A DNA stretch of 64,000 bases from an uncultured Candidatus Saccharibacteria bacterium (GTDB lineage Bacteria; Patescibacteriota; UBA1384; XYA2-FULL-43-10; 1-14-0-10-43-13). Shown piece after piece: positions 1 through 12,135 of this stretch; positions within the stretch are counted from its first letter, which is position 1, and each line of letters starts with the position of its first letter. A model generated the notes under the pieces. That model was not told where the DNA came from and made no database searches. It worked only from the letters and a program-made list of their open reading frames with translations. Location: positions 64,450 through 128,449 of the forward strand of contig CAZVMH010000001.1 of the NCBI GenBank assembly GCA_964628585.1, written 5' to 3'. The translations under genes and the position numbers were made by a program.

Positions 1-58
1 AAAACGATATGGTTACTATACAACTTCTCCACAAAATTGCAAATAAAATATAGCAAAA

Positions 59-85
59 CCCCTCCCCCCGGTCTGGGGGGAGGGG
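59..85 (-). terminator. GC-rich hairpin (11-bp perfect stem cccctcccccc/ggggggagggg, 5-nt loop) at the 3' end of the mtnP operon; on the minus strand it is followed by a U-rich tract (plus-strand A-run 41-58).
   Basis: Perfect inverted repeat read directly from the sequence. It lies immediately downstream of the 96..920(-) stop codon and marks the left edge of the GC-rich island. Confidence 0.6.
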
Positions 86-95
86 CGATTGCGCT

Positions 96-920
96 CTACT
101 TCTTGTAGTACTCGCGGTATGTCTCGGTGCAGTCACATTCGGTCTGTCTGTCGTCCGATAGTGCTGGCAGAACTTTGAGGAGCAGTTCTTTACCGAGCTC
201 GATGTTTCGGTGGAAGATGGGGAGTATCTCTTCCATCTTTCCGGGAGCTATTTGAAGCTCGTGCCGAACGCCAGGGTCGTAGTCCGTGATCATCGCTATG
301 CTTCCGTAGCAGATCCCGAGCATCCTGGCAAAATAGCACTCGGGATACTGTGTCATGTTCACAATGTCCCAGCCATTCCTGATGAAGTAGCTGCTCTCTG
401 CCAGGGTGGAGAACCGAGGTCCCTGAATCACAACCACGGTTTTGTCCTGATGGACCTTAATCCCGAGAAAGTTAGCCTCTTCACTGATCACTCTGCTGAC
501 GGTCGGACAGTAAGGGTTGGCCATGGGAGTGTGAACGACCAGGCCGTCCTGATCGAAGTTATCGTCACGTCCATAGGTTAGATTGACGAACTGACTTGGA
601 ACCACGAAGCTTCCTGGTTCTATCTCCTGCCTCAGGCTTCCGGCGATGCATGTCGCCAGAATCGCATTGACTCCTAAAGACTGGAGTGCAGCGATGTTCG
701 CCATGTATGGGATCCTGTGGGGAGGAATCGAGTGTTCTGGTCCATGTCTGGGCAAGAAGGCGATGGGTACTCCTCCATATCTCCCGAGGATGATTTCATC
801 AGAGGGCAACCCGTACATCGTATTTGGTCGCACCCTGTTATCAACCTCGAGCTCAGGCAGTTTGCATAGCCCCGAGCCACCAATCACTGCGATTCTGGCT
901 TTCTGTGTGCTCAATCTCAT
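96..920 (-). CDS. mtnP: S-methyl-5'-thioadenosine phosphorylase (PNP/MTAP family); also expected to accept 5'-deoxyadenosine
   Basis: 274-aa ORF with the MTAP-type N-terminus ARIAVIGGSGL and strong similarity to MTAP along its length (GPRFST..AES, DIVNMT, GICYGSIAMITDYD). The start overlaps the upstream rSAM gene by 4 bp (translational coupling). Confidence 0.8.
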   Translation of the reverse strand: MRLSTQKARIAVIGGSGLCKLPELEVDNRVRPNTMYGLPSDEIILGRYGGVPIAFLPRHGPEHSIPPHRIPYMANIAALQSLGVNAILATCIAGSLRQEIEPGSFVVPSQFVNLTYGRDDNFDQDGLVVHTPMANPYCPTVSRVISEEANFLGIKVHQDKTVVVIQGPRFSTLAESSYFIRNGWDIVNMTQYPECYFARMLGICYGSIAMITDYDPGVRHELQIAPGKMEEILPIFHRNIELGKELLLKVLPALSDDRQTECDCTETYREYYKK

Positions 921-2257
921 ACTCCTTTGTCATTCAGCCAGAGAAGATAGTCGAAAGCCTCCTCGGCGAATATGGTTGACGCTAGGTCCTGTTCCATATA
1001 GTCGCCAGAAAGCTCAATGTTGTTCCATGCACAACCGCCTCCGCAAAGGCTTTTGGCATCTAATTCATCGTATGCCGGGTTGAAGATTGGCAGGCGTTGT
1101 CTCCATTGCTGGGCAGTCTCCGACTGCCAGATCCTGAAGTTCGTGCCTACCAGTTCGGTGACATCTCCCATATCATTGCGGTAGAAAGGACAGTTTGTCA
1201 CTTGACCGTTTGGCTGAACCACAATCTGGCTACCGTAGCAGGTGCAGTCAACGGGGAAGAAGTTCTTGCCCGTGAGACCAGAGTACTTCTTCTCCATCTG
1301 AAACTCAAAGTCGGTCCTGTCCTGATTTTGGAAACCCCTGATCATTGCCTGGGCAGCTTGCCTGTAGAAGGTCTCCGCGTCAACGCCTGGATAATCCGCT
1401 AATGCACGCCCTTTGAGAAGGTTGAAGCCAAACTTCTCGACTCCCAGTTCCACGAGAGTCTGATAGTAGCTATCCACCACCTCGATGTTGTCCGGGGTGA
1501 TGCTGACAGATGCACAGGTTGTAATGTTGTTGCTGACCAGTATCTTTATCGCTTCGATGACCTGATCGGTCGAATTGGTCGGTTGTTGTGCCTGTCGAGC
1601 TCGATTGTGCTTGGCATCAAATCCGTCGATTCCAACCGAAACGATCACGTCATGTTTCTGACACAGACCGATCGTTTTGTCATCAATGAGCAGACCGTTG
1701 GTCGCAATCATCTTTCTGATGCTGCCTGGCAAGAGGCCACCCTGTTGCAGTTCGTGGAGATACTCGAGAGTATTGGTGATAATCGGCATATTCAGCAGCG
1801 GCTCACCGCCGTAGAAGATCACATAATAGTCTCTGTTCTCGTCGTACAGCTCTGCCAGATGTTCTCTCCATAGCCACACTCCTGCTCGAGCATGCGTGTC
1901 GGTCATGTTGATTGGCCCATACTGATCGGCCAAGCTGGGAACCGGGCAGTAGCTACATGCCAGGTTGCAGTGTTGAGCTGTCAAGAGATAAAGGATGATG
2001 GTCTGGTTGAGGTTCTGGTTGGTGCGCTGTTGAACCATCCTCAATTCTGCCTGGTCTTCCTCTTGTCTACTTATCAAAAGTCGTTTCTCCACCAGCACAG
2101 TTGCCAATGGGGAGGCAAAATCCGGGTGTTCCAGAAAGGAATCCCAGGATCTTGCGGTCAGAAAGATCGGCTCGGGGTGCAGTTCGTGAAAGATGGCTAC
2201 ACGGGTCCCTCGCCTGCGCTCCCTGAGGTATTTAGAGAAGAGCAATCTACTGTTCAA
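917..2257 (-). CDS. Radical SAM enzyme with C-terminal SPASM-type auxiliary Fe-S domain (peptide-modifying maturase-like); the ~95-aa N-terminal extension is a possible RiPP-recognition element
   Basis: 446-aa ORF with the canonical CxxxCxxC motif (CNLACSYC). Its C-terminal Cys cluster (CTCYG...CPFY...CGGGCAWNN) is typical of SPASM/twitch domains. It sits immediately downstream of the small Cys-peptide gene. Confidence 0.75.
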   Translation of the reverse strand: MNSRLLFSKYLRERRRGTRVAIFHELHPEPIFLTARSWDSFLEHPDFASPLATVLVEKRLLISRQEEDQAELRMVQQRTNQNLNQTIILYLLTAQHCNLACSYCPVPSLADQYGPINMTDTHARAGVWLWREHLAELYDENRDYYVIFYGGEPLLNMPIITNTLEYLHELQQGGLLPGSIRKMIATNGLLIDDKTIGLCQKHDVIVSVGIDGFDAKHNRARQAQQPTNSTDQVIEAIKILVSNNITTCASVSITPDNIEVVDSYYQTLVELGVEKFGFNLLKGRALADYPGVDAETFYRQAAQAMIRGFQNQDRTDFEFQMEKKYSGLTGKNFFPVDCTCYGSQIVVQPNGQVTNCPFYRNDMGDVTELVGTNFRIWQSETAQQWRQRLPIFNPAYDELDAKSLCGGGCAWNNIELSGDYMEQDLASTIFAEEAFDYLLWLNDKGV

Positions 2258-2344
2258 GGATCCTGATTCCTTTCCTGTTTATTAAAGAACAATGAAACGG
2301 CCCAGCTGGAATAACCTCTCCAACTGGGCCCTGCGTCTTCTTCG

Positions 2345-2536
2345 CTAGCGCGCGGTCTTGCCGAGCTCGGCGAACTCTGCTCTGGTGAGCGTGATCTTGC
2401 CGCCGTGGTCGTCTGTGATCGTGACCTCGCTTGTCTTAATCACCGCCTGCGGGCAACACCCCTGGACACCACACATTGTGACGATCGTCGGATCCGCGTC
2501 TGTTCCGGAACCTTTCCTGTCCTGAAGCTTCTTCAT
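2345..2536 (-). CDS. Small (63 aa) Cys-containing protein, candidate precursor/substrate peptide for the adjacent rSAM-SPASM enzyme (motif TMCGVQGCCPQ)
   Basis: ORF preceded by a strong SD (GGGAGGTG, 7-nt spacing) and a near-consensus promoter. It is the first gene of the operon, directly upstream of the rSAM gene. No TM segment or recognisable enzyme motif. Confidence 0.5.
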   Translation of the reverse strand: MKKLQDRKGSGTDADPTIVTMCGVQGCCPQAVIKTSEVTITDDHGGKITLTRAEFAELGKTAR

Positions 2537-2585
2537 CTTGAATCACCTCCCTTGCCGATGAAGACGGCACCTAATCTCAGATTAC

Positions 2586-2613
2586 ATAATACCACAGTTG
2601 GCTGTACTGTCAA
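2586..2613 (-). promoter_or_regulatory. Sigma70-type promoter (minus strand: TTGACA, 16-nt spacer, TATTAT) driving the peptide/rSAM/mtnP operon
   Basis: Minus-strand TTGACA (plus 2608-2613) and TATTAT (plus 2586-2591) with 16-nt spacing, about 40 nt upstream of the peptide start codon. Confidence 0.55.
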
Positions 2614-2619
2614 CGCCAA

Positions 2620-4302
2620 TCAACAAATATCATTGCCCCTAGGTTTATCGACACCGATACTTTCCAGATACGACTGAAGATCGCTCAGTTCCTTGACTGA
2701 GCCATCCTCGATCATAAATAGCTTGTTGGCGGAGATAGTCTCAAGGAAATGGCGATCATGCGAGACGAAGATCACCGTACCCTTGTAAGTGGAAAGAACC
2801 TTCTCGAGTGCATCTAATGCATCAACATCGAGATGATTAGTTGGCTCATCTAGCACAAGTACATTAGCAGAATTGAGTGAAAAGAGTGACATTGCCAGTC
2901 TGGCCCTTTCTCCAGGACTGATTTCACCAATCTCTTTTGTACTGATTGCTTCTGGTGTGAAGTTGAAGTTGGCCAGGACATGATAGAGCTCGGTTATACT
3001 TGACAAAGAACCGTCTCGAAGGAAATCGAGCACGTTCATGTTCCTTGGCATATCTCCGTGAGTCTGTGTGAGATTGCCGAATACAACCGATGGACTTATC
3101 CTGACTATGCCGCTAATAGGCGACAGTTCTCCGGTAATTGTTCGGAGTAGGGTAGATTTACCCGTTCCGTTTTTCCCGATGAAGCCAATCCTCTGTCCAA
3201 AACCAATCTCAAGAGAAACTGGTTCTAAAGCAAAGCCATCTTTGTAACCCACTACTGCTCGACGAAGACGAATTGCAGTATCTGCTTCGCTATGCTTTGG
3301 CGCTAGGGGAATTATGGTGGGTTCTCTGTCGCGCTTCAGCTTTACGAGTTTGATGCCAGAAATCTGCTGTTCGATTGCCTTTGCTTTGGCCGCCGACTTG
3401 CCAGAACGATCTCTTTGGGCACCGCGAACAAACTTATCGTTGTCGCGAGTATCCTGTCTGCTTCCCTGGTCGCTCCATGACTTGATCTGGCGAGCACTTT
3501 CTTCTAGTCGAACGATCTCGTCTTTTTGTCTTTCGTGTTCTAGCTGGTCTCTTCTCATCTTTGCTAATCTGCGGTCGATATAACAGGAATAGTTACCTGC
3601 GTATTCGACAAGATTGCGATCATACCAATCGATCTCGAAGACCTTGCTCACTATTTTGTCCAAAAAGTAGCGGTCATGAGAAACGATCAAGCAAGCAGCT
3701 TTGCATGAAGACAGAAAAGATTCAAGCCACACGATAGATGGTAAGTCGAGATTGTTGGTTGGCTCATCGAGGAGCAAGACGTCCTTACCTTGAAGGAGTG
3801 TTCCTGCTAGAGCTACCTTGGAGCGCTGACCTCCACTCAATGTTGATATTTGTCGACTTGGTTCAATTCCAGCCAGTCCAAGTCCGGCCAAAACTTTGGC
3901 CATGGTGTGATCAAAGTCGTAGCCATCATTATCCATATAGAGCTGAAGTGTATTGGAATACTCCTCGGCCTTTTCTGGATCATCGAGCTGACCAGCAAGT
4001 ACTTCTAGTTGGTCTTCGAGCTCAGCGATTCCGACAAATTCCTTGAGATACCTCTCTATGGTCAGTCCTGTCTTTCCAAGAACTATCTCCTGAGGAAGGT
4101 AACCTAAGCGCCTTTCGGCACTTATTTGGACGTTGCCAGAATCGGGCTCCTCCAACCCTGCCAAAATCTTAAGCAGGGTAGACTTTCCACTTCCGTTTGA
4201 GCCAACAATTGCCACTTTCTGTCCAAGATTAAGGAAGAAAGAGACATCGACAAGAACATCTTGGCCCGCGTAGGACTTTGAAATGTTGTTAGCTGATATC
4301 AT
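2620..4302 (-). CDS. ABC-F family ATPase (two tandem ABC nucleotide-binding domains, no TM domain; EttA/Uup/YbiT-like translation factor or ARE-type)
   Basis: 560-aa ORF with two Walker A motifs (GSNGSGKST, GKNGTGKST), two LSGGQ signatures and a charged linker between the domains. Confidence 0.8.
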   Translation of the reverse strand: MISANNISKSYAGQDVLVDVSFFLNLGQKVAIVGSNGSGKSTLLKILAGLEEPDSGNVQISAERRLGYLPQEIVLGKTGLTIERYLKEFVGIAELEDQLEVLAGQLDDPEKAEEYSNTLQLYMDNDGYDFDHTMAKVLAGLGLAGIEPSRQISTLSGGQRSKVALAGTLLQGKDVLLLDEPTNNLDLPSIVWLESFLSSCKAACLIVSHDRYFLDKIVSKVFEIDWYDRNLVEYAGNYSCYIDRRLAKMRRDQLEHERQKDEIVRLEESARQIKSWSDQGSRQDTRDNDKFVRGAQRDRSGKSAAKAKAIEQQISGIKLVKLKRDREPTIIPLAPKHSEADTAIRLRRAVVGYKDGFALEPVSLEIGFGQRIGFIGKNGTGKSTLLRTITGELSPISGIVRISPSVVFGNLTQTHGDMPRNMNVLDFLRDGSLSSITELYHVLANFNFTPEAISTKEIGEISPGERARLAMSLFSLNSANVLVLDEPTNHLDVDALDALEKVLSTYKGTVIFVSHDRHFLETISANKLFMIEDGSVKELSDLQSYLESIGVDKPRGNDIC

Positions 4303-4998: not shown

Positions 4999-6546
4999 TT
5001 ATAATTGTTGTCTATCTATCTTGCGTTCTGTTAAACTAAAAGCGGACAGTATTAGAAGGATAAGAAAGATGAGAACAAATAAGAGAGCAGTTGGAATTAT
5101 AACAAAAGATGGTAAAATACTTCTTTTTAGGCGAGTCAAAGACAACGAAGAATATTTTTCTGGACTATTTTTTATATCTTCAATTAGCTCTTTCCAGTTT
5201 GTCCACTTCCAGTCGGAAGCTTCTTCGGGGTTTAATTCTGGTTCTTTATCGTATCTTCCGACAAAAACATGATCGTATTCGTATTCAGTTAACTTTCCCA
5301 AATTTGCTTTGTAAGTGAAAGAAAAGGTCTCTTTTAGCTCGGTATCTAAACCCATCTCTTCTTTTAATCTTCGGTGGGCCACATCAACAGTCTCTTCGCT
5401 TGGCGCCGGGTGACTGCAACAGGTATTGGTCCACAAGCCAGGAGAGTGATATTTTTCATCTGCTCGTTTTTGCAACATCAACTCGTCTTTCGAATTGAAA
5501 ACAAAGATTGAAAAACATCGGTGCAGTTTTCCATCTCGATGAACTTGCATCTTTTCTCCCGTCCCGATTTCCCTGTCATTCTCATCAACCAAGATTATGT
5601 CGTTCATTTTTAGTATTCTCCGCTTTGAAAAAATACCTGTGAATATTGGGACAGGCAGAAGAGCGAATCCTGCTTGAATTGGACTCCAGCCCAAAGTATT
5701 TTGGAGGAAGAAGGTAAGAACAAAAGACATGCCAATTACAGAAACCATTACAATAAAACTTATTATGTTTGAGGCGGTAAAGGTTTGATTCTGGAAGAGA
5801 TGAAAATCAAGCAGAGAATTTTTTAATCGCTTCTGGTAATAGTAAAGGGCTACCAAAAATAGAAAACCTAAAATCAGAAACAGTTTATTGATTTGTGATA
5901 ACGATAGGGCGATAGTAACAAGTCCAAGAGCAAGAAGCGCCACACTACCATAATCGAGTTTAATTTCTTTATTAGCTGGTAGATCTGGAATATATTTGGA
6001 TGAAATGATTAAGCCTACAATGACAAGTGGAACATTAATTAAAAATAATAAGTGCCAGCCGTAAAACTGACCAATATTAATATTTGACAACATTCCGCCA
6101 ATAATGGGACCGACTAACATACCAGCGGCAAATGTTCCAGCGGTTACAGCAAAAGCTTTCTCTCGTTCTTTCCAGAGATGGGCAATAATTGCCATTGGCA
6201 TAGTATATAGAATAGCAATCGAAATACCTTGGACTGCACGTAATGCAATCATTATTTCAATATTACTGATAAACCCGAGCACTAAAGACGATAGTCCGAA
6301 AAGAGATAGGCCCCAAATATACAATTTTTTAGGTCCAATTTTGTCACCCAATTTGCCCATAAAAATCAAAAAAATTATCAAGGCAAGGGTGAGGGCATTT
6401 GGTATCCATTGGGTGAGAGAAATAGGAATATCTAATGTAGAAGTGATTTTTGGCAAAGCAACATTTAACCCCGTGCTGTCTATGGCACCGAGAAGGTCGG
6501 CAGTTGCAACAGCAACAAGAATAAGGGTTAAATTATTTTTTTTCAT
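4999..6546 (-). CDS. Chimeric protein: an N-terminal MFS (DHA2-like) transporter half of ~8 TM segments, a type-1 isopentenyl-diphosphate isomerase (NUDIX) domain, and a C-terminal TM helix
   Basis: Residues ~1-310 are hydrophobic helices with MFS motifs (GKLGDKIGPKK loop). Residues ~315-480 match IDI type 1 (NTCCSHP, E-rich NUDIX box, W..W). The last 40 aa form a TM helix. The ORF is continuous. Confidence 0.6.
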   Translation of the reverse strand: MKKNNLTLILVAVATADLLGAIDSTGLNVALPKITSTLDIPISLTQWIPNALTLALIIFLIFMGKLGDKIGPKKLYIWGLSLFGLSSLVLGFISNIEIMIALRAVQGISIAILYTMPMAIIAHLWKEREKAFAVTAGTFAAGMLVGPIIGGMLSNINIGQFYGWHLLFLINVPLVIVGLIISSKYIPDLPANKEIKLDYGSVALLALGLVTIALSLSQINKLFLILGFLFLVALYYYQKRLKNSLLDFHLFQNQTFTASNIISFIVMVSVIGMSFVLTFFLQNTLGWSPIQAGFALLPVPIFTGIFSKRRILKMNDIILVDENDREIGTGEKMQVHRDGKLHRCFSIFVFNSKDELMLQKRADEKYHSPGLWTNTCCSHPAPSEETVDVAHRRLKEEMGLDTELKETFSFTYKANLGKLTEYEYDHVFVGRYDKEPELNPEEASDWKWTNWKELIEDIKNSPEKYSSLSLTRLKRSILPSFVIIPTALLFVLIFLILLILSAFSLTERKIDRQQL

Positions 6547-8478: not shown

Positions 8479-8504
8479 AAAGGCGTTGCTCTCGCAACGC
8501 CTTT
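8479..8504. terminator. Bidirectional intrinsic terminator hairpin (11-bp perfect stem AAAGGCGTTGC/GCAACGCCTTT, loop TCTC) between the convergent hydrolase and tyrS genes
   Basis: Perfect inverted repeat with a U-rich flank on the plus side. It sits 26 bp after the 7704..8453 stop codon and 29 bp after the tyrS stop codon. Confidence 0.65.
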
Positions 8505-8532
8505 CGGTGTGTTTTCCTCCCTTTGATTCTGG

Positions 8533-9726
8533 CTACTTGAGCCTGATTTGGGCGAACTTGATCTTTCCTGCCCGCAAAATGCAGTCGTGGGTGATCATGT
8601 AGCCGATGTCAGACACTTTCTCGCCATCAATTCGGGCTCCGCCTTGCTCGATGAGGCGCCTGGCGCCGTTTTTCGATTCGGCGAACCCAATTGTTGTCAG
8701 TACATCTACGATGTTTGCCGGACTAATCGCATAGGTCGGCATGCTCTCTGGCGTTTTCCTCTCCTGGAAAACCCGATTGAACTCATCCGCAGCCTTCTGG
8801 GCAATTACGGATCCGTGAAGGTCAGCGACAATCTCAATCGCTAGCGCGAGTTTGATGTCGCGGGGATTAGCCTTTCCCGATTTCATGTCGAGTTCAGATT
8901 TCTCGATGGTTTTGCGCGGTATCCGCGTCAAATGAATCAGGTATGGCACTATCATGTCGTCCGACATGCTCATGAGTTTTCCGAGCATATCGTTGGGGCT
9001 GTCGGTCAGGTTGATGGTGTTGCCCCAGGACGAGCTCATCTTCCTTCCGTCCAAGCCATTGATCAGAGTTGTCATGATCAGGGCTTGGGGCTTTGCTTGG
9101 TGGGCGCGTTGTATCTCTCGGCCTGCCAGCATGTTAAATCTCTGGTCAGTACCACCAACCTCAATGTCAGCGCTAAGGTAAAGCGAGTCGTACCCCTGCA
9201 TTATGGGGTAAACCATTTCTCTGACCGAGACCCTCTTGCCCTCTTGGAGCCTCTTGGCGATGTTAGATCTCGCCGAAAACTCCGCTAGGGTGAATAAGTT
9301 GGTCAGTGCCAGGAAACGACCGAAGTCCATCTGGCTCCACCAAGACTTATTGTAATGGACTTCAGTCTTCGCGAGATCTAGTATCTGCCCAATCTGCTGG
9401 GTATATGTCCGCATATTGGTTGCGACTACATCTGCGGATACTGCAGGACGCTCGCTCTCTTTGTCGCTCGTGTCGCCAATCTCGGCCGTGAAGTCTCCTA
9501 TAATCAGGACTATCTGGTGGCCAAGCTTCTGCAGATCACGCAAGAGCATAATCGGGATAGCCCTTCCAAGATGAATGTTCTCGCTGGTTGGATCGGTGCC
9601 CCACTTAATCCTTAGGGGCGGGCCACTTAGAAGGTCAACCATGCTGGTATCGGAGATGATCTCTTGGATGTGTCCCCGGTCGAGCAGTTCTGTTACGGCG
9701 GAAACTCTTTTGGCGTGATTCATCAC
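8533..9726 (-). CDS. tyrS: Tyrosyl-tRNA synthetase (class I; degenerate HIGH = IHLG, KMSKS = KMSSS, C-terminal S4-like domain)
   Basis: 397-aa ORF with DPTS..IHLG, GGTDQ and GRKMSSS motifs and a C-terminal GARRLIEQGGARIDGEKV S4 motif. The gene is GC-rich (about 52% GC). Confidence 0.8.
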   Translation of the reverse strand: MMNHAKRVSAVTELLDRGHIQEIISDTSMVDLLSGPPLRIKWGTDPTSENIHLGRAIPIMLLRDLQKLGHQIVLIIGDFTAEIGDTSDKESERPAVSADVVATNMRTYTQQIGQILDLAKTEVHYNKSWWSQMDFGRFLALTNLFTLAEFSARSNIAKRLQEGKRVSVREMVYPIMQGYDSLYLSADIEVGGTDQRFNMLAGREIQRAHQAKPQALIMTTLINGLDGRKMSSSWGNTINLTDSPNDMLGKLMSMSDDMIVPYLIHLTRIPRKTIEKSELDMKSGKANPRDIKLALAIEIVADLHGSVIAQKAADEFNRVFQERKTPESMPTYAISPANIVDVLTTIGFAESKNGARRLIEQGGARIDGEKVSDIGYMITHDCILRAGKIKFAQIRLK

Positions 9727-10514
9727 ATACTCCTTTTCGCGGTGACGATGTCACCTATTCTGAATGGACTTGAGGTAGTTGTGAGCTTGCGCACACAGCC
9801 TACTTCAGCAAGTCCTAGCGAGCTACCCTTGTAGATTGCCCAGGTGCTGTCTGGCAGGTTCTTCATGGCGTGTGAGAAGGTAACAACTTGCCAATCGTTG
9901 CCGTTGATGGCCAACTGCAACTTCTCTCCCTCGGCTAAGCTAGGGGGGAGTAACATCTTTACCTTAGCAACGCCGAAGTTGTCAATATGAACGATTGTGC
10001 CGTCAGCGATCTCTAACCGTGTAAGGCGGTTGGGATCAAACTTGCATTTGTATCCGTTAAGATTGGCCATACTGGCCACCTTGACCGCCTCTGGTGCGTG
10101 GAAATACTTACCACCGAAGGAAATGAACTGAACGCCATCAAGTCCTTCGGATGAATACTCGTACACTTCGCTCAGACCGAAATCGTCCAGTAGCCAGCTT
10201 AAGGCGCCGGTGTTTTCGGCCACAAATCGAATTCCGTTCTGGGTCCGGCCAACAAGCCGGGCTCGATTTGCGCGGGCAGTAGGTAGAGCGTTAGCTACAA
10301 TCAGTAAGACAGTGCTTAACGGATCGCAACTTTCTGCTAGTAGGCGAACCAGAAAGGCGCAATTGATGGTCGAGAATTCTTTGCAGTTGACGAACGGGTC
10401 GATTACTACTTTGTCTTCTTGGCCTAGCGCGTTTATGGTTCGATTGAGCGTCGCATGCAGTTCGTTGCTTGCGACATCGGTGCAATCGGTGAACGTTAGG
10501 ATTCTTGATTTCAT
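9723..10514 (-). CDS. SAM hydroxide adenosyltransferase family protein (DUF62 / fluorinase-chlorinase-like fold)
   Basis: A D-x-FG motif (IVHIDNFGVA) in the C-terminal domain and an N-terminal TDxxD-containing segment. The likely true start is 10514, where an AGGAGG SD lies 7 nt upstream; the longer ORF reaches 10583. Moderate similarity only. Confidence 0.5.
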   Translation of the reverse strand: MKSRILTFTDCTDVASNELHATLNRTINALGQEDKVVIDPFVNCKEFSTINCAFLVRLLAESCDPLSTVLLIVANALPTARANRARLVGRTQNGIRFVAENTGALSWLLDDFGLSEVYEYSSEGLDGVQFISFGGKYFHAPEAVKVASMANLNGYKCKFDPNRLTRLEIADGTIVHIDNFGVAKVKMLLPPSLAEGEKLQLAINGNDWQVVTFSHAMKNLPDSTWAIYKGSSLGLAEVGCVRKLTTTSSPFRIGDIVTAKRSM

Positions 10515-10533
10515 CTGGTTGCCTCCTTGTGGT

Positions 10534-11478
10534 CTACTCGAACACGGACACCTCATAAACACGGTCGTCGGCAGAGAAATCATATGTATCGATAATCTTA
10601 CCGCTCCAGTCTAGCTGAAGTATGCGATGGTTGTCGGCGTCAGCTGCAAAGATAGTATCGTCTTTTTGGCAGTGTATCGCGTCCTGAACCCAGGACATGC
10701 CGAGGTCTGCGCCCAACTCTTGCGTAAGCTCAAGCTGGTCGTTTAAGACCATGATCGTATTAGCAGACGTGTTGCAGAGAAGGTGCCTTCCTGCTCCTGC
10801 GTCTTTCAGGTTGTGGGGATTCTTGAGTCCCCTTAGCACAACCTGAATTGTGTCGGCTTCCTTGTCAATCAGTACAAGCTCGCCCGGATGGAAAAGTGTT
10901 GCCACGATTTTGCTTTCTTTTTCATCCACGTAGCGACAGTAATTGACGTGAGTCGTCTGGTGCAAGGAGGGGTATTCAACTCCCTGGTGTTTTGTCTCTC
11001 GATCAACGATCCTTTCGCCTCCGAGTTGATCTGACTTGTACCCATGCTCGGTAAACAAAAACGAGTAGATCGTTTTTCCAGAAGAGTCGACTTCTACTAT
11101 TGCATCGGTACCAGTGCTGGCTACCATCCAGCCAGAGCTAGTTTTTACCAAAGAATGTGGCTTGTTGAACAAGTCGTTATCTATGGTCGTCAAGATAGCC
11201 TTCTGGGATAACGATATTGCCAATATAGCACCGCTCCTAAGCGTGTTGGCCATCAACAAATCGTTAGATGCACGATAGGTTCCCGTGGGGCACTCGACTG
11301 TCATGCTCCAGGCGATTTTCTTTGTTGCCCAATCAATGATGTCTATACGGCCACCAAGTCTTTTCACGAAAGGCTTGTCGCTTCCTCTCTTTCCTTCGCT
11401 CATCAAAACGGAGTGTCTAGCCCAATGTCTCTTGAGCTGGTCGAAGTCTGTTGACAGATACGATGCCAATAAAAACAT
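10534..11478 (-). CDS. Hypothetical protein, possibly beta-propeller-like; function unknown
   Basis: 314-aa ORF in the GC-rich island, in an operon with the DUF62 gene and tyrS. No confident motif. Confidence 0.4.
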   Translation of the reverse strand: MFLLASYLSTDFDQLKRHWARHSVLMSEGKRGSDKPFVKRLGGRIDIIDWATKKIAWSMTVECPTGTYRASNDLLMANTLRSGAILAISLSQKAILTTIDNDLFNKPHSLVKTSSGWMVASTGTDAIVEVDSSGKTIYSFLFTEHGYKSDQLGGERIVDRETKHQGVEYPSLHQTTHVNYCRYVDEKESKIVATLFHPGELVLIDKEADTIQVVLRGLKNPHNLKDAGAGRHLLCNTSANTIMVLNDQLELTQELGADLGMSWVQDAIHCQKDDTIFAADADNHRILQLDWSGKIIDTYDFSADDRVYEVSVFE

Positions 11479-11490
11479 GTTTCTCCCTTC

Positions 11491-12135
11491 CTATCGACTT
11501 TCATTTATTGCATCAAGGACATCGGGGGATAGTTGTCTTAGCGCCACGCTCTCGTGTTCAAAATCGGTCTTGACCGTGAAACTGGCCGTAACAATTGCGC
11601 TTAGCGGATCGGACGATATGTTGCGATGCAGCGCAACGATAGCTTGAGCAAATTGTGGAATTATTATCGCTTGAGTCCCAACTAATCGGGCTTGCTCGAA
11701 TGCAAATAATTCCGCAGATGTGTGGAGACATTCGGATACAGGTATCGTTGTCTGGCCGCTCACAGTCTTCTTCTCGGGAAGGCATTTCACAAATTCACGA
11801 AAAGTAATGCGTTCCAGCATTGCGATTACTCCCCGCAGATATTCAGAAGATGTCATTGCAGCGCTCATTAGATGCACTGACGAATATAGTCCCGATATAG
11901 CAGAAAAAAACTCGCGGTTGAGCTCTTCTTGCTCTATGGCCGACCGTCCGAAGACTGCCATCGGCAGATAGTCATCCACAAAGATGCTGGGCTTTCTATA
12001 AGTGCAGATCTCAGACAATACTGAGTGCATTAGAAAACCAGGACCTGGTGGTCGGTTCGCCCACAGGACGATCCCGAAGGGGTGTTCAACACTGATCGGA
12101 CCCATGAATCCCTTGATATAGTCCCCAATTTTCAC
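11491..12135 (-). CDS. Hypothetical protein
   Basis: 214-aa ORF with GC-rich coding statistics and the same orientation as its neighbours. No recognisable motif. Confidence 0.4.
   Translation of the reverse strand: MKIGDYIKGFMGPISVEHPFGIVLWANRPPGPGFLMHSVLSEICTYRKPSIFVDDYLPMAVFGRSAIEQEELNREFFSAISGLYSSVHLMSAAMTSSEYLRGVIAMLERITFREFVKCLPEKKTVSGQTTIPVSECLHTSAELFAFEQARLVGTQAIIIPQFAQAIVALHRNISSDPLSAIVTASFTVKTDFEHESVALRQLSPDVLDAINESR

What the first reader, a model, noticed from the sequence alone, without database searches (positions are those of the whole stretch)
96..2613. Promoter-driven operon of a small Cys peptide, an rSAM-SPASM enzyme and MTA/5'-dAdo phosphorylase: candidate RiPP-like system with built-in by-product disposal
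A near-consensus promoter (TTGACA-16-TATTAT) and strong SD precede a 63-aa ORF (MKKLQDRKGSGTDADPTIVTMCGVQGCCPQAV...). It is immediately followed by a radical-SAM enzyme with a SPASM-type auxiliary cluster domain and a ~95-aa N-terminal extension (possibly a RiPP recognition element). The third gene is translationally coupled (4-bp overlap) and encodes an MTAP-family phosphorylase. MTAP-family enzymes are known to phosphorolyse 5'-deoxyadenosine, the obligatory rSAM by-product. The architecture looks like a self-contained peptide-modification module (sactipeptide/ranthipeptide-like or a Cys-modifying maturase). The whole operon sits on a GC-rich island bounded by hairpins, which suggests horizontal acquisition. 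The peptide's CGxxGCC motif does not match any precursor family I can name.
Basis: partly seen in the sequence, partly recalled or inferred. Interest (0 to 1): 0.7.

Follow-up and report, generated by a model that had tools for sequence, protein, structure and literature searches.

The report
Peptide-modifying operon with ribosome-protection gene
This is a real, horizontally mobile gene cassette of uncultured "candidate phyla radiation" bacteria in which a radical-SAM enzyme probably modifies a small three-cysteine protein. The cassette also carries its own by-product-clearing enzyme and an antibiotic-resistance-type ribosome factor, which hints that the product acts on ribosomes.

Summary
- promoter 2613..2586
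- strong Shine-Dalgarno (SD) site
- 63-aa Cys protein, 2345-2536
- hairpin, 2330..2299
- 446-aa radical-SAM (rSAM) enzyme, 917-2257
- MTAP-type phosphorylase, 96-920, overlapping the rSAM gene by 4 bp
- terminator, 86..58

The trio is conserved. In 48 non-redundant genome loci, mostly Patescibacteria/CPR, the small protein and the MTAP each accompany the rSAM in 47.

The rSAM matches no named family. It is modelled with an N-terminal RRE-like domain and has only one auxiliary-cluster Cys set, so it is Twitch-like rather than full SPASM.

- It shares the GC-rich island and is adjacent in 34 of 39 informative loci.
- Its linker has the length of the VmlR/ARE linker.
- Its closest relatives elsewhere sit beside a second, unrelated rSAM + Cys-peptide pair, once together with an Erm methyltransferase.

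Caveat: the small protein belongs to a wider uncharacterised family with stand-alone phage members that keep the Cys motif.

Best reading: an uncharacterised RiPP-like cassette of substrate, maturase, 5'-deoxyadenosine disposal and ribosome-protection-type immunity. The chemistry and the target are inferred. New variant of a known kind; interest about 0.6.

The parts
2620..4302 (-). ABC-F ATPase, 560 aa, two ABC domains and no membrane domain. Its extended inter-domain linker is VmlR/ARE-like. Fourth conserved member of the cassette.
   Evidence: NCBIfam ribo_prot_ABC_F NF000355 scores 425 bits (cut-off 380). With the linker alone (residues 180-380), the best PDB matches are VmlR, VmlR2, VgaA-LC, LsaA and MsrE; the VmlR alignment is contiguous and of equal length. 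Against YheS there are about 27 extra residues at the linker tip. The gene lies inside the GC island. It is adjacent to the triad in 34 of 39 informative loci.
2586..2613 (-). Sigma-70-like promoter TTGACA-16-TATTAT with a TG extended -10, upstream of the small gene.
   Evidence: 11 of 12 matches, the best site in 4.6 kb. It starts 7 nt after the ABC-F stop codon.
2543..2551 (-). Shine-Dalgarno sequence GGGAGGTGA, 6 nt upstream of the ATG of the small gene.
   Evidence: Read directly from the sequence.
2345..2536 (-). Small protein, 63 aa. Variable N-terminal tail, then a conserved domain with the motif LCGvQGCCPtV...vIxDDxGGkVxLTxxeW. Presumed substrate of the rSAM.
   Evidence: Lies directly upstream of the rSAM in 47 of 48 loci. 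About 66 cluster representatives were found. C22, C27, C28, D43 and G45 are invariant. The AF2 model is beta4-alpha with pLDDT 84. No Pfam, NCBIfam or PHROG family matches.
2299..2330 (-). 13-bp hairpin followed by a T-rich tract, between the small gene and the rSAM gene. Probably a partial terminator or attenuator that sets a precursor-to-enzyme expression ratio.
   Evidence: MFE -28.7 kcal/mol, z = -3.6. An equivalent GC-rich hairpin plus U-tract occurs in most orthologous loci despite sequence divergence.
917..2257 (-). Radical-SAM enzyme, 446 aa. It has an N-terminal RRE-like domain (about residues 1-87), the CX3CX2C motif (C97, C101, C104) and a truncated SPASM / Twitch-like C-terminal domain (C338, C340, C356, C409).
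   Evidence: Pfam Radical_SAM 58.5 bits; SPASM 20.0 bits, below the 21.5 threshold. The best NCBIfam match is FibroRumin TIGR04136, 125 bits against a cut-off of 400. Invariant Cys. AF2 pLDDT 92 with beta3-alpha3 at the N-terminus. Foldseek finds TigE, CteB, anSME, ChlB, SkfB and SuiB.
96..920 (-). MTAP-family phosphorylase, 274 aa, translationally coupled to the rSAM by a 4-bp overlap.
   Evidence: PNP_UDP_1 133.6 bits. MTAP equivalog models score 245-264 bits, just under their cut-offs of 275-306. The closest PDB entries are archaeal MTAP II and human MTAP. The motifs GGSG, RHG, NMT..PE and TDYD are retained. Present in 47 of 48 loci, mostly overlapping or within 20 nt of the rSAM stop codon.
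58..86 (-). Intrinsic terminator, a 12-bp stem with 10 GC pairs plus a T-tract. It ends the operon and marks the edge of the GC island.
   Evidence: GC falls to background right after it in L003.

Best explanation
This is a mobile four-gene cassette.

1. The 63-aa protein is made from its own strong promoter and SD. It is probably made in excess over the enzymes, because a hairpin/U-tract follows its stop codon.
2. The radical-SAM enzyme binds it through an N-terminal RRE-like domain and modifies the three-cysteine loop (C22, C27, C28). It uses 5'-deoxyadenosyl-radical chemistry with one auxiliary Fe-S cluster. Candidate reactions are a Cys-derived thioether cross-link, for example to the neighbouring invariant Asp pair, or Cys oxidation.
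3. The translationally coupled MTAP-type phosphorylase removes the inhibitory by-product 5'-deoxyadenosine and recovers adenine.
4. The VmlR-like ABC-F acts at the producer's ribosome as target protection, or as a sensor, against the mature product. That product would therefore act on the large ribosomal subunit.

Shown here: gene order, conservation, domain identities, the fold models and the ABC-F association.

Inferred: that the small protein is the substrate (my estimate 0.7), that the MTAP's role is by-product disposal (0.6), that the ABC-F gives immunity against a ribosome-directed product (0.4), and the actual chemistry (unknown).
For: - The triad is conserved in 47 of 48 non-redundant loci spanning many CPR lineages plus two Pseudonocardiales MAGs; one MAG each is labelled 'Bacillota' and 'Fibrobacter'.
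- The rSAM's only sequence and structure relatives are peptide maturases, and it has an RRE-like N-terminal fold.
- An attenuator-like hairpin recurs after the small gene.
- The MTAP catalytic motifs are intact. MTA phosphorylase cleaves 5'-deoxyadenosine, and 5'-deoxyadenosine inhibits rSAM enzymes (PMC8102628).
- The ABC-F lies within the same GC island and is adjacent in 34 of 39 informative loci, in three different arrangements.
- The window's ABC-F groups with the ABC-Fs linked to a second, unrelated RRE-rSAM + GCCxxSCGGSP-peptide pair, not with the other type-A ones. This implies an independent re-association of the triad with an ABC-F.
- In locus L169 that ABC-F overlaps an Erm 23S rRNA methyltransferase gene scoring above its NCBIfam cut-off.
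- The linker length and sequence match VmlR and other ARE ABC-Fs. ARE ABC-F linkers are on average about 30 aa longer than EttA's, and AREs occur in antibiotic producers (PMC6723617).
Against: - The cassette has no leader peptidase and no exporter.
- The small protein is a folded domain conserved along its whole length, not a leader-plus-variable-core precursor.
- Stand-alone phage homologues keep the Cys and DDxGG motifs with no rSAM nearby. The Cys could therefore serve metal binding or structure.
- A folded mini-protein of about 45 aa is not an obvious ligand for the peptidyl-transferase centre or exit tunnel, where ARE ABC-Fs act.
- Over its full length the ABC-F is closest to EttA in the PDB, and no resistance phenotype is known.
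- The type-B rSAM systems have no MTAP. Dedicated disposal is therefore not a general need of these organisms.
- Five type-A loci with good flanks have no adjacent ABC-F.
Confidence: 0.45

Rival explanations
1. The product is an intracellular modified mini-protein with a translation-related or regulatory role, and no antibiotic is involved. The rSAM matures the Cys loop of a small beta4-alpha protein that stays in the cell. This protein works with, or is regulated by, the ABC-F translation factor, for example by binding RNA or ribosomes. The MTAP still clears 5'-deoxyadenosine.
Against: The cassette is rare and patchy: about 50 of 185,579 species genomes, and it crosses phyla. It sits on a GC island. 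The same ABC-F clade is paired with Erm and with a classical-looking Cys-rich precursor plus a HlyB-type exporter elsewhere. All of this fits an accessory competition or immunity module better than housekeeping.
Confidence: 0.2
2. The small protein is not the substrate but a stand-alone metal-, Fe-S- or redox-binding accessory, for example an electron donor or chaperone for the rSAM. The real substrate is encoded elsewhere, or is not a peptide from this cassette.
For: The family has about 50 phage-contig members that keep the three Cys and DDxGG with no rSAM, MTAP or ABC-F in the flanks. In phages the loop between Cys1 and the CC pair varies from 3 to 6 residues, as a metal-binding knuckle would tolerate. 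From my own knowledge, a vicinal Cys pair plus a third Cys 4-5 residues away forms a three-thiolate site in ArsD.
Against: The rSAM has an RRE-like peptide-binding domain, and all its relatives are peptide maturases. The small gene comes first in the operon, with its own strong promoter and an attenuator after it. In the rSAM-linked branch the loop length and its Gly residues are fixed (CG-x-x-G/S-CCP), unlike in the phage branch. That pattern suggests constraint imposed by an enzyme. No other candidate substrate is conserved nearby.
Confidence: 0.12
3. The MTAP-type enzyme is a maturation enzyme rather than a scavenger. The rSAM attaches the 5'-deoxyadenosyl group to the peptide, for example at a Cys sulfur, giving a peptidyl analogue of methylthioadenosine. 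The phosphorylase then removes adenine from the adduct. By analogy, from my own knowledge, MqnE adds the 5'-deoxyadenosyl radical in the futalosine pathway and a nucleosidase then removes the base.
For: MTAP is invariant in, and translationally coupled within, type-A cassettes (47 of 48). It is absent from the type-B rSAM-peptide systems that share the same ABC-F clade in similar organisms. Its presence therefore tracks this particular chemistry rather than rSAM use in general. MTAP equivalog scores fall slightly below their cut-offs.
Against: The base-, ribose- and phosphate-binding motifs are canonical. Nothing seen here suggests an enlarged 5'-substituent pocket. SPASM/Twitch peptide maturases characterised so far abstract hydrogen and release 5'-deoxyadenosine.
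Confidence: 0.07
4. The ABC-F adjacency is inherited synteny with no functional link, and only the three-gene unit is real.
For: Five type-A loci lack an adjacent ABC-F. One close ABC-F orthologue, in L171, has no rSAM nearby.
Against: There are three different arrangements: downstream on the same strand, upstream on the same strand, and divergent in Actinobacteria. The GC island is shared. The window's ABC-F belongs to the clade linked to type-B systems, so the juxtaposition arose more than once. Eight of nine loci sampled through the ABC-F carry an rSAM-peptide system.
Confidence: 0.1

Closest known systems
Radical-SAM/SPASM-Twitch RiPP maturases with an N-terminal RRE: CteB (SCIFF thioether, PDB 5WGG/5WHY), TigE (8VPO), PapB (ranthipeptide), and QhpD acting on the small QhpC subunit
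   Same: The enzyme has a CX3CX2C core and a C-terminal auxiliary-cluster domain. Its N-terminal beta3-alpha3 domain is included in the full-length Foldseek alignments to CteB and TigE (TM about 0.7). A small Cys-containing gene lies immediately upstream. From my own knowledge, QhpD likewise cross-links Cys to Asp/Glu in a small protein rather than in a short peptide.
   Different: Sequence scores are far below every family cut-off (FibroRumin 125/400, PapB 102/340, QhpD 73/453, SCIFF 69/425). Only one auxiliary Cys set is present. The partner is a folded beta4-alpha domain of about 45 aa that also has stand-alone phage relatives. MTAP and ABC-F genes are conserved parts of the cassette.
Anaerobic sulfatase-maturating enzyme (anSME, PDB 4K36-4K39)
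   Same: It belongs to the same structural group (Foldseek E about 1e-12, TM 0.62-0.64 normalised to the query). It acts on a Cys in a C-x-P context, and the small protein here has C27-C28-P29.
   Different: anSME has no RRE and has two auxiliary clusters. Its target motif, CxPxR, is not matched here (the sequence is CCPxV). TIGR03942 scores 84 bits against a cut-off of 349.
ARE-type ABC-F ribosome-protection proteins (VmlR, Vga, Lsa, Msr) and cluster-situated ABC-Fs of antibiotic producers (OleB, CarA, LmrC)
   Same: The protein has two ABC domains and no membrane domain. It passes the NF000355 cut-off. Its linker aligns contiguously with the VmlR ARD at equal length. The gene sits next to biosynthetic-looking genes, and once next to Erm. 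PMC6723617 and PMC8546547 describe such roles.
   Different: The partner clusters encode rSAM-modified peptides or proteins, not macrolides or lincosamides. The hosts are CPR bacteria. None of the specific ARE subfamily models passes its cut-off, and no phenotype is known.
MTA phosphorylase (MtnP/MTAP) in 5'-deoxyadenosine salvage
   Same: The family and catalytic motifs are the same, and the closest structures are archaeal MTAP II and human MTAP. MtnP is the enzyme that cleaves 5'-deoxyadenosine in Synechococcus (PMC8102628).
   Different: Here the gene is translationally coupled to one particular rSAM gene inside a mobile cassette, not placed in a salvage pathway. No isomerase or aldolase of the DHAP shunt is nearby.
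DUF397 / BldB-like small proteins of actinomycetes
   Same: They are of similar size. From my own knowledge, they share a loosely similar pattern: C-V-E-V ... V-R-D-x-x-x-G-x-x-L-x-F-x-x-x-E-W-x-x-F, with an optional K-x-G-E-F-D tail. Some family members end in similar tails.
   Different: Only 2 of 51 members touch PF04149, at E >= 0.011. Membership is not supported.

Membership tests
Radical SAM superfamily (PF04055) | CX3CX2C motif binding the SAM-cleaving [4Fe-4S] cluster, within a partial TIM barrel | tested here: met
   C97-x3-C101-x2-C104 is invariant in 29 homologues. Pfam scores 58.5 bits against a cut-off of 29.5. The AF2 model has pLDDT 92.
SPASM domain (PF13186) | Seven-Cys motif CX9-15GX4C - gap - CX2CX5CX3C - gap - C, binding two auxiliary clusters | tested here: not met
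   Only C340-x10-G351-x4-C356 plus C338 and C409 are invariant; C405 is conserved in only part of the family. Pfam scores 20.0 bits, below the 21.5 threshold. This is consistent with a single auxiliary cluster, that is, a Twitch-like domain (inference).
RiPP recognition element (PqqD-like, PF05402) | Three-stranded beta-sheet plus winged-helix domain that binds the precursor | tested here: inconclusive
   There is no Pfam PqqD hit. However, AF2 gives three strands (11-16, 19-24, 31-34) followed by helices before the core. Full-length Foldseek alignments to the RRE-containing CteB and TigE have TM about 0.7. Binding was not tested.
Named rSAM peptide-maturase families (FibroRumin, PapB, nif11, DynA, anSME, QhpD, SCIFF and others) | Score above the NCBIfam equivalog cut-off | tested here: not met
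   The best match is TIGR04136 at 125.5 bits against 400. All others are lower relative to their cut-offs.
RiPP biosynthetic gene cluster | Precursor gene adjacent to the modifying enzyme | tested here: met
   The small gene lies directly upstream of the rSAM in 47 of 48 loci.
RiPP biosynthetic gene cluster | Leader/core organisation with leader removal and export functions | tested here: not met
   No conserved protease or transporter is present in or next to the cassette. The N-terminal tail is variable, and the conserved part is a folded domain.
Sactipeptide / ranthipeptide | Cys sulfur to alpha-, beta- or gamma-carbon thioether in the product | not testable with these tools
   This needs mass spectrometry or NMR of the modified protein.
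MTAP (TIGR01694 / NF005876) | Equivalog score, plus the phosphate-, ribose- and adenine-binding motifs | tested here: inconclusive
   Scores are 245.1 against 274.85 and 263.9 against 306, just below the cut-offs. The motifs GGSG, RHG, NMT..PE and TDYD are conserved against S. tokodaii MTAP. Substrate range was not tested.
ARE-type ABC-F (ribosomal protection) | Two ABC domains without a membrane domain, joined by an extended linker (ARD) | tested here: met
   ABC_tran is found twice. NF000355 scores 425 bits against 380. The linker aligns end to end with VmlR and has about 27 extra residues compared with YheS.
ARE-type ABC-F (ribosomal protection) | Confers resistance to a ribosome-targeting compound | not testable with these tools
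   Only contextual support is available: co-operonic Erm in L169 and association with two rSAM-peptide systems.
DUF397 (PF04149) | Pfam match | tested here: not met
   2 of 51 members match, with a best E-value of 0.011. The window protein has no hit.
Known anti-phage defence systems (PADLOC) | Match to a system-specific model | tested here: not met
   Only generic rSAM (pVip, 35 bits) and ABC-ATPase similarities were found.

The most novel reading that the evidence does not exclude
The MTAP-type enzyme is a biosynthetic enzyme. The rSAM adenosylates a cysteine (or a derived residue) of the mini-protein, giving a protein-bound analogue of methylthioadenosine. The phosphorylase then strips off adenine, leaving a ribose-1-phosphate-type appendage. 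The resulting glyco-thioether mini-protein, or a fragment of it, is a ribosome-directed agent, and a VmlR-like ABC-F protects the producer against it. This would be a new class of post-translational modification and the first ribosome-targeting natural product assigned to CPR bacteria.
Probability: 0.06. Interest if true: 0.9.

Novelty: new variant of a known kind. Interest (0 to 1): 0.62.

Why it matters
- CPR/Patescibacteria are tiny, mostly uncultured, episymbiotic bacteria that are thought to have almost no specialised metabolism. A conserved, mobile cassette that spends SAM to modify a small protein, and that travels with an antibiotic-resistance-type ribosome factor, suggests they do engage in chemical warfare or in control of translation.
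- The recurrent link between one ABC-F clade and two unrelated rSAM + Cys-peptide systems (once together with Erm) is a resistance-guided pointer to possible new ribosome-targeting peptides.
- It is also a pointer to an ARE-like ABC-F lineage outside the Firmicutes and Actinobacteria.
- The obligatory, translationally coupled MTAP is an unusual case of a radical-SAM gene carrying its own by-product enzyme. It offers a direct test of how 5'-deoxyadenosine is handled in minimal genomes.
- The small protein defines an uncharacterised three-Cys mini-domain that is shared with phages.

Tried and rejected
- **Word-index search with the 63-aa peptide.** It found only a 98%-identical copy. The exhaustive search was needed to find the family.
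- **Giant proteins among the peptide hits.** Giant repeat proteins among the peptide hits (P0125, P0127, P0187) matched only through short 'vtItDDnG'-type beta-hairpin repeats of adhesin-like proteins; P0128 gave no domain hit on re-scoring. I rejected them as unrelated.
- **DUF397/BldB relationship.** I suspected this from memory, but Pfam does not support it. The PDB profile search found nothing.
- **Defence-system identity.** PADLOC gave nothing specific.
- **RNA elements.** No Rfam family and no tRNA were found in the window.
- **Cassette on phages.** IMG/VR holds no orthologue of the rSAM (best 24% identity) and no exact CGVQGCCP-type motif. Cultured or annotated phage genomes hold no homologue of the phage-type small protein.
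- **Literature.** I found no paper describing this cassette or an ABC-F linked to an rSAM RiPP.
- **ABC-F as a plain housekeeping neighbour.** I first suspected this when close orthologues turned up without the cassette. I rejected it when those loci proved to carry a different rSAM + Cys-peptide pair.

Full report
**1. What is in the window**

All features lie on the minus strand. Reading 5' to 3' on that strand:
- a 560-aa ABC-F gene (4302..2620)
- seven bases later, a promoter TTGACA-16-TATTAT with a TG extended -10 (2613..2586)
- an SD sequence, GGGAGGTGA
- a 63-aa ORF (2536..2345)
- a 13-bp hairpin followed by a T-rich tract (2330..2299)
- a 446-aa radical-SAM gene with a TTG start (2257..917)
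- a 274-aa phosphorylase gene overlapping it by 4 bp (920..96)
- a GC-rich hairpin plus T-tract terminator (86..58)

Pfam confirms Radical_SAM (58.5 bits) and PNP_UDP_1 (133.6 bits).

The GC island is real, at 47-53% against about 36% for the rest of the window. It spans all four genes, including the ABC-F. In the near-identical contig L003, which extends beyond the window's edge, GC falls to background immediately after the phosphorylase terminator.

**2. The triad is a conserved unit**

The rSAM has hundreds of full-length relatives at 42-52% identity. Where they are named, the organisms are Uhrbacteria, Pacebacteria and Minisyncoccales.

A scan of one genome per species returned about 50 orthologous loci (35-47% identity). 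Most are from Patescibacteria/CPR MAGs. Two are from Pseudonocardiales, one is labelled 'Bacillota' and one 'Fibrobacter'.

I scored all six-frame ORFs of these loci with an HMM of the small protein and with the window's proteins. Among 48 non-redundant loci:
- The small protein lies directly upstream of the rSAM in 47.
- The MTAP-type gene lies directly downstream in 47. The exceptions are a contig end and one rearranged locus.
- In 43 of 47 loci the MTAP start, taken as the first in-frame start codon, lies between -56 and +19 nt of the rSAM stop; the long overlaps may be overestimates.

Genes outside the cassette differ from locus to locus.

**3. The enzyme**

No named NCBIfam family is reached. 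The best match is the FibroRumin maturase at 125 bits against a cut-off of 400, followed by PapB, nif11, DynA, anSME, YhhB, QhpD and SCIFF. All of these are peptide- or protein-modifying enzymes.

CX3CX2C (C97, C101, C104) is invariant. In the C-terminal part only C338, C340, C356 and C409 are invariant, and C405 is partly conserved. This corresponds to the CX9-15GX4C half of the SPASM motif plus one Cys of the CX3C element. I infer a single auxiliary cluster, that is, a Twitch-like domain. Pfam SPASM is sub-threshold at 20.0 against 21.5 bits.

The AF2 model has pLDDT 92. It places three beta-strands and three helices before the core (residues 11-83), which is the RRE topology. The best full-length structural matches are TigE, CteB, anSME, ChlB, SkfB and SuiB.

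**4. The small protein**

The exhaustive search found about 66 cluster representatives, nearly all 45-80 aa. The N-terminal 10-20 residues and the C-terminal tail vary. The core motif is v-T-L-C-G-v-Q-G-C-C-P-t-V...v-I-x-D-D-x-G-G-k-V-x-L-T-x-x-e-W, with C22, C27, C28, D43 and G45 invariant.

AF2 predicts a beta-beta-beta-beta-alpha mini-domain (pLDDT 84), with the three Cys in the loop between strands 1 and 2. From the hairpin register, C27/C28 and D42/D43 should lie at the base of the beta2-beta3 hairpin. This is an inference; I could not inspect the coordinates.

A strong GC-rich hairpin followed by a U-tract sits between the small gene and the rSAM gene in most loci, although its sequence differs between them. 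This fits a need for more of the small protein than of the enzyme.

**5.

Divergent family members sit in phage contexts with no rSAM:
- next to a T4-like major capsid gene (L093)
- in an array of small phage-type ORFs (L094)

A pattern scan of IMG/VR then recovered 48 viral-contig loci whose small ORFs match the family HMM (E 1e-12 to 1e-19). They keep L-C-x3-6-C-C-P...I-x-D-D-x-G-G-x-V-x-L-T. None has an rSAM, MTAP or ABC-F relative in the flanks held for it. Two of them that I annotated are true phage contigs, with portal and terminase genes or with Bro-N, TnpB and a DNA methylase. IMG/VR holds no orthologue of the rSAM.

The three-Cys motif is therefore intrinsic to a stand-alone mini-domain. 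In the rSAM-linked branch the loop has a fixed length and fixed Gly residues (C-G-x-x-G/S-C-C-P). In phages it varies. I read that as added constraint from the enzyme. It also keeps the metal-binding or redox-partner rival alive.

**6. The fourth gene**

An ABC-F gene follows the MTAP gene on the same strand in most loci. In the window and in L087 it precedes the small gene. In the two Pseudonocardiales loci it is divergent. After correcting four cases where stop-to-stop ORFs overlap, it is adjacent in 34 of 39 informative loci.

It passes NCBIfam's 'ribosomal protection-like ABC-F' model, at 425 bits against 380. Over its full length its best PDB match is EttA. The inter-domain region alone (residues 180-380) behaves differently. 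It matches the ARE proteins VmlR, VmlR2, VgaA-LC, LsaA and MsrE best, and it aligns with VmlR contiguously at equal length. Against YheS there are about 27 extra residues at the linker tip. Murina et al. report that ARE linkers are on average about 30 aa longer than EttA's and reach toward the peptidyl-transferase centre (PMC6723617).

**7. Sampling from the ABC-F side**

Close ABC-F relatives (44-51% identity) number about 250, the same order as the rSAM family. Many lie on the same contigs as rSAM hits. I examined nine such loci:
- Two carry the same triad: L087, and L170, which is frameshifted.
- Six carry a different pair on the opposite strand. These are L084, L085 and L089 (near-identical), L086, L088 and L169. 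The pair is an RRE-rSAM of about 412 aa, unrelated to the window's enzyme, plus a 53-82-aa peptide with a conserved G-C-C-x-x-S-C-G-G-S-P motif.
- One, L171, carries neither.

In L169 an Erm-type 23S rRNA A2058 methyltransferase gene (NF000499, 233 bits against 212) overlaps the ABC-F start. In L085 a HlyB-type ABC exporter follows.

In an NJ tree the ABC-Fs linked to this second system form one clade, and the window's ABC-F is sister to it. The other triad-linked ABC-Fs form a separate large clade, and the Pseudonocardiales ones lie outside both. The triad has therefore become linked to an ABC-F more than once. Together with the shared GC island, this argues for a functional link.

No MTAP accompanies the second system.

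**8. The phosphorylase**

The closest structures are archaeal MTAP II (S. tokodaii, S. solfataricus, A. pernix) and human MTAP. The GGSG, RHG, NMT..PE and TDYD motifs and an archaeal-type C-terminal CxC are retained. MTAP equivalog models score just under their cut-offs.

MTA phosphorylase is the enzyme that cleaves 5'-deoxyadenosine in Synechococcus, and 5'-deoxyadenosine inhibits rSAM enzymes (PMC8102628). By-product removal plus adenine salvage is the simplest reading. The absence of MTAP from the sister system leaves some room for a specific chemical role.

**9. Synthesis**

The best-supported model is a mobile four-gene RiPP-like cassette with four parts:
- a substrate mini-protein
- an RRE-bearing Twitch-type rSAM that modifies its Cys loop
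- a coupled MTAP that clears 5'-deoxyadenosine
- a VmlR-like ABC-F that protects or monitors the producer's ribosome

Gene content, conservation, domain assignments, fold models and associations are shown. The substrate relationship, the chemistry, the role of the MTAP and the ribosomal target are inferred.

The main weaknesses are these:
- There is no protease or exporter.
- The 'precursor' is folded and conserved along its whole length.
- The phage homologues exist without any rSAM.
- It is not obvious how a mini-protein would reach the site where ARE ABC-Fs act.

**10. Comparison and novelty**

It works like an rSAM RiPP or protein-maturation system. The closest in spirit are CteB/SCIFF, PapB and QhpD-QhpC. 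It fails every named family's cut-off and lacks a full SPASM motif. The conserved MTAP and ARE-like ABC-F modules, and the shared ABC-F clade that serves two unrelated rSAM-peptide systems in CPR bacteria, are not described in the literature I could search. I rate it a new variant of a known kind, with interest about 0.6.

Noticed in passing
L088 2809-4274 (-); L085 6735-8216 (-); L086; L169 7737-9323 (-): A second, unrelated rSAM system lies convergent to close orthologues of the window's ABC-F. It consists of an RRE(PqqD)-rSAM of about 412 aa plus a 53-82-aa peptide with a conserved G-C-C-x-x-S-C-G-G-S-P motif. It has no MTAP. L085 adds a HlyB-type ABC exporter.
   Followed up: partly
L169 5096-5995 (+): An Erm-type 23S rRNA (A2058) methyltransferase gene, scoring above the NCBIfam equivalog cut-off, overlaps the start of the ABC-F gene in a CPR MAG contig. 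This pairs two classic protections of the 50S subunit.
   Followed up: partly
L093, L094, L097-L168 (IMG/VR and ENA contigs): About 50 phage-contig homologues of the small protein carry the motif LC-x3-6-CCP...I.DD.GG.V.LT. None has an rSAM, MTAP or ABC-F nearby. In L093 and L109 the gene lies in the head-morphogenesis module, next to the capsid or the portal/terminase genes. PHROGs offers only two weak, function-unknown matches for one member, and annotated phage genomes hold no match.
   Followed up: partly
Intergenic regions after the small gene in L006-L011, L013, L015, L017, L021, L031 and L047: Many orthologous loci have two hairpins after the small gene. The first is short and recurrent (for example CGACATCGTGCACGATGCCG). 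The second is the long GC-rich terminator-like stem. The window has only the second.
   Followed up: no
window 8500-12100: There is a second GC-rich patch (47-52% against about 36% background). It covers the tyrosyl-tRNA synthetase gene (8533-9726, -) and three ORFs with no Pfam match, which suggests a mosaic genome.
   Followed up: no
window 4999-6546 (-): A 515-aa ORF fuses an MFS transporter domain to a NUDIX domain. In the otherwise near-identical contig L003 this region is called differently, as a separate 202-aa NUDIX gene with no MFS gene. This points to local rearrangement or an assembly difference.
   Followed up: no
L032 1864-2688 (-) and 7167-8480 (+): In the Pseudonocardiales version of the cassette, a Cof-type HAD phosphatase gene lies beyond the divergent ABC-F. 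A 437-aa ORF with no Pfam match starts at the MTAP stop codon. These may be extra members of the cassette in actinomycetes.
   Followed up: no
P0182 (116 aa): A tandem two-domain variant of the small protein. Its second copy keeps the beta-hairpin/DD/helix part but lacks the CG..GCC motif, which shows that the fold can exist without the three Cys.
   Followed up: no
L171 1-6004: The one close ABC-F orthologue with no rSAM nearby is preceded by three things: a split Rv1355c-like pair (ThiF-type E1 plus Acg-family FMN oxidoreductase), a histidine kinase, and an ORF with a faint Pfam Peptidase_C39 hit that overlaps the ABC-F start.
   Followed up: partly
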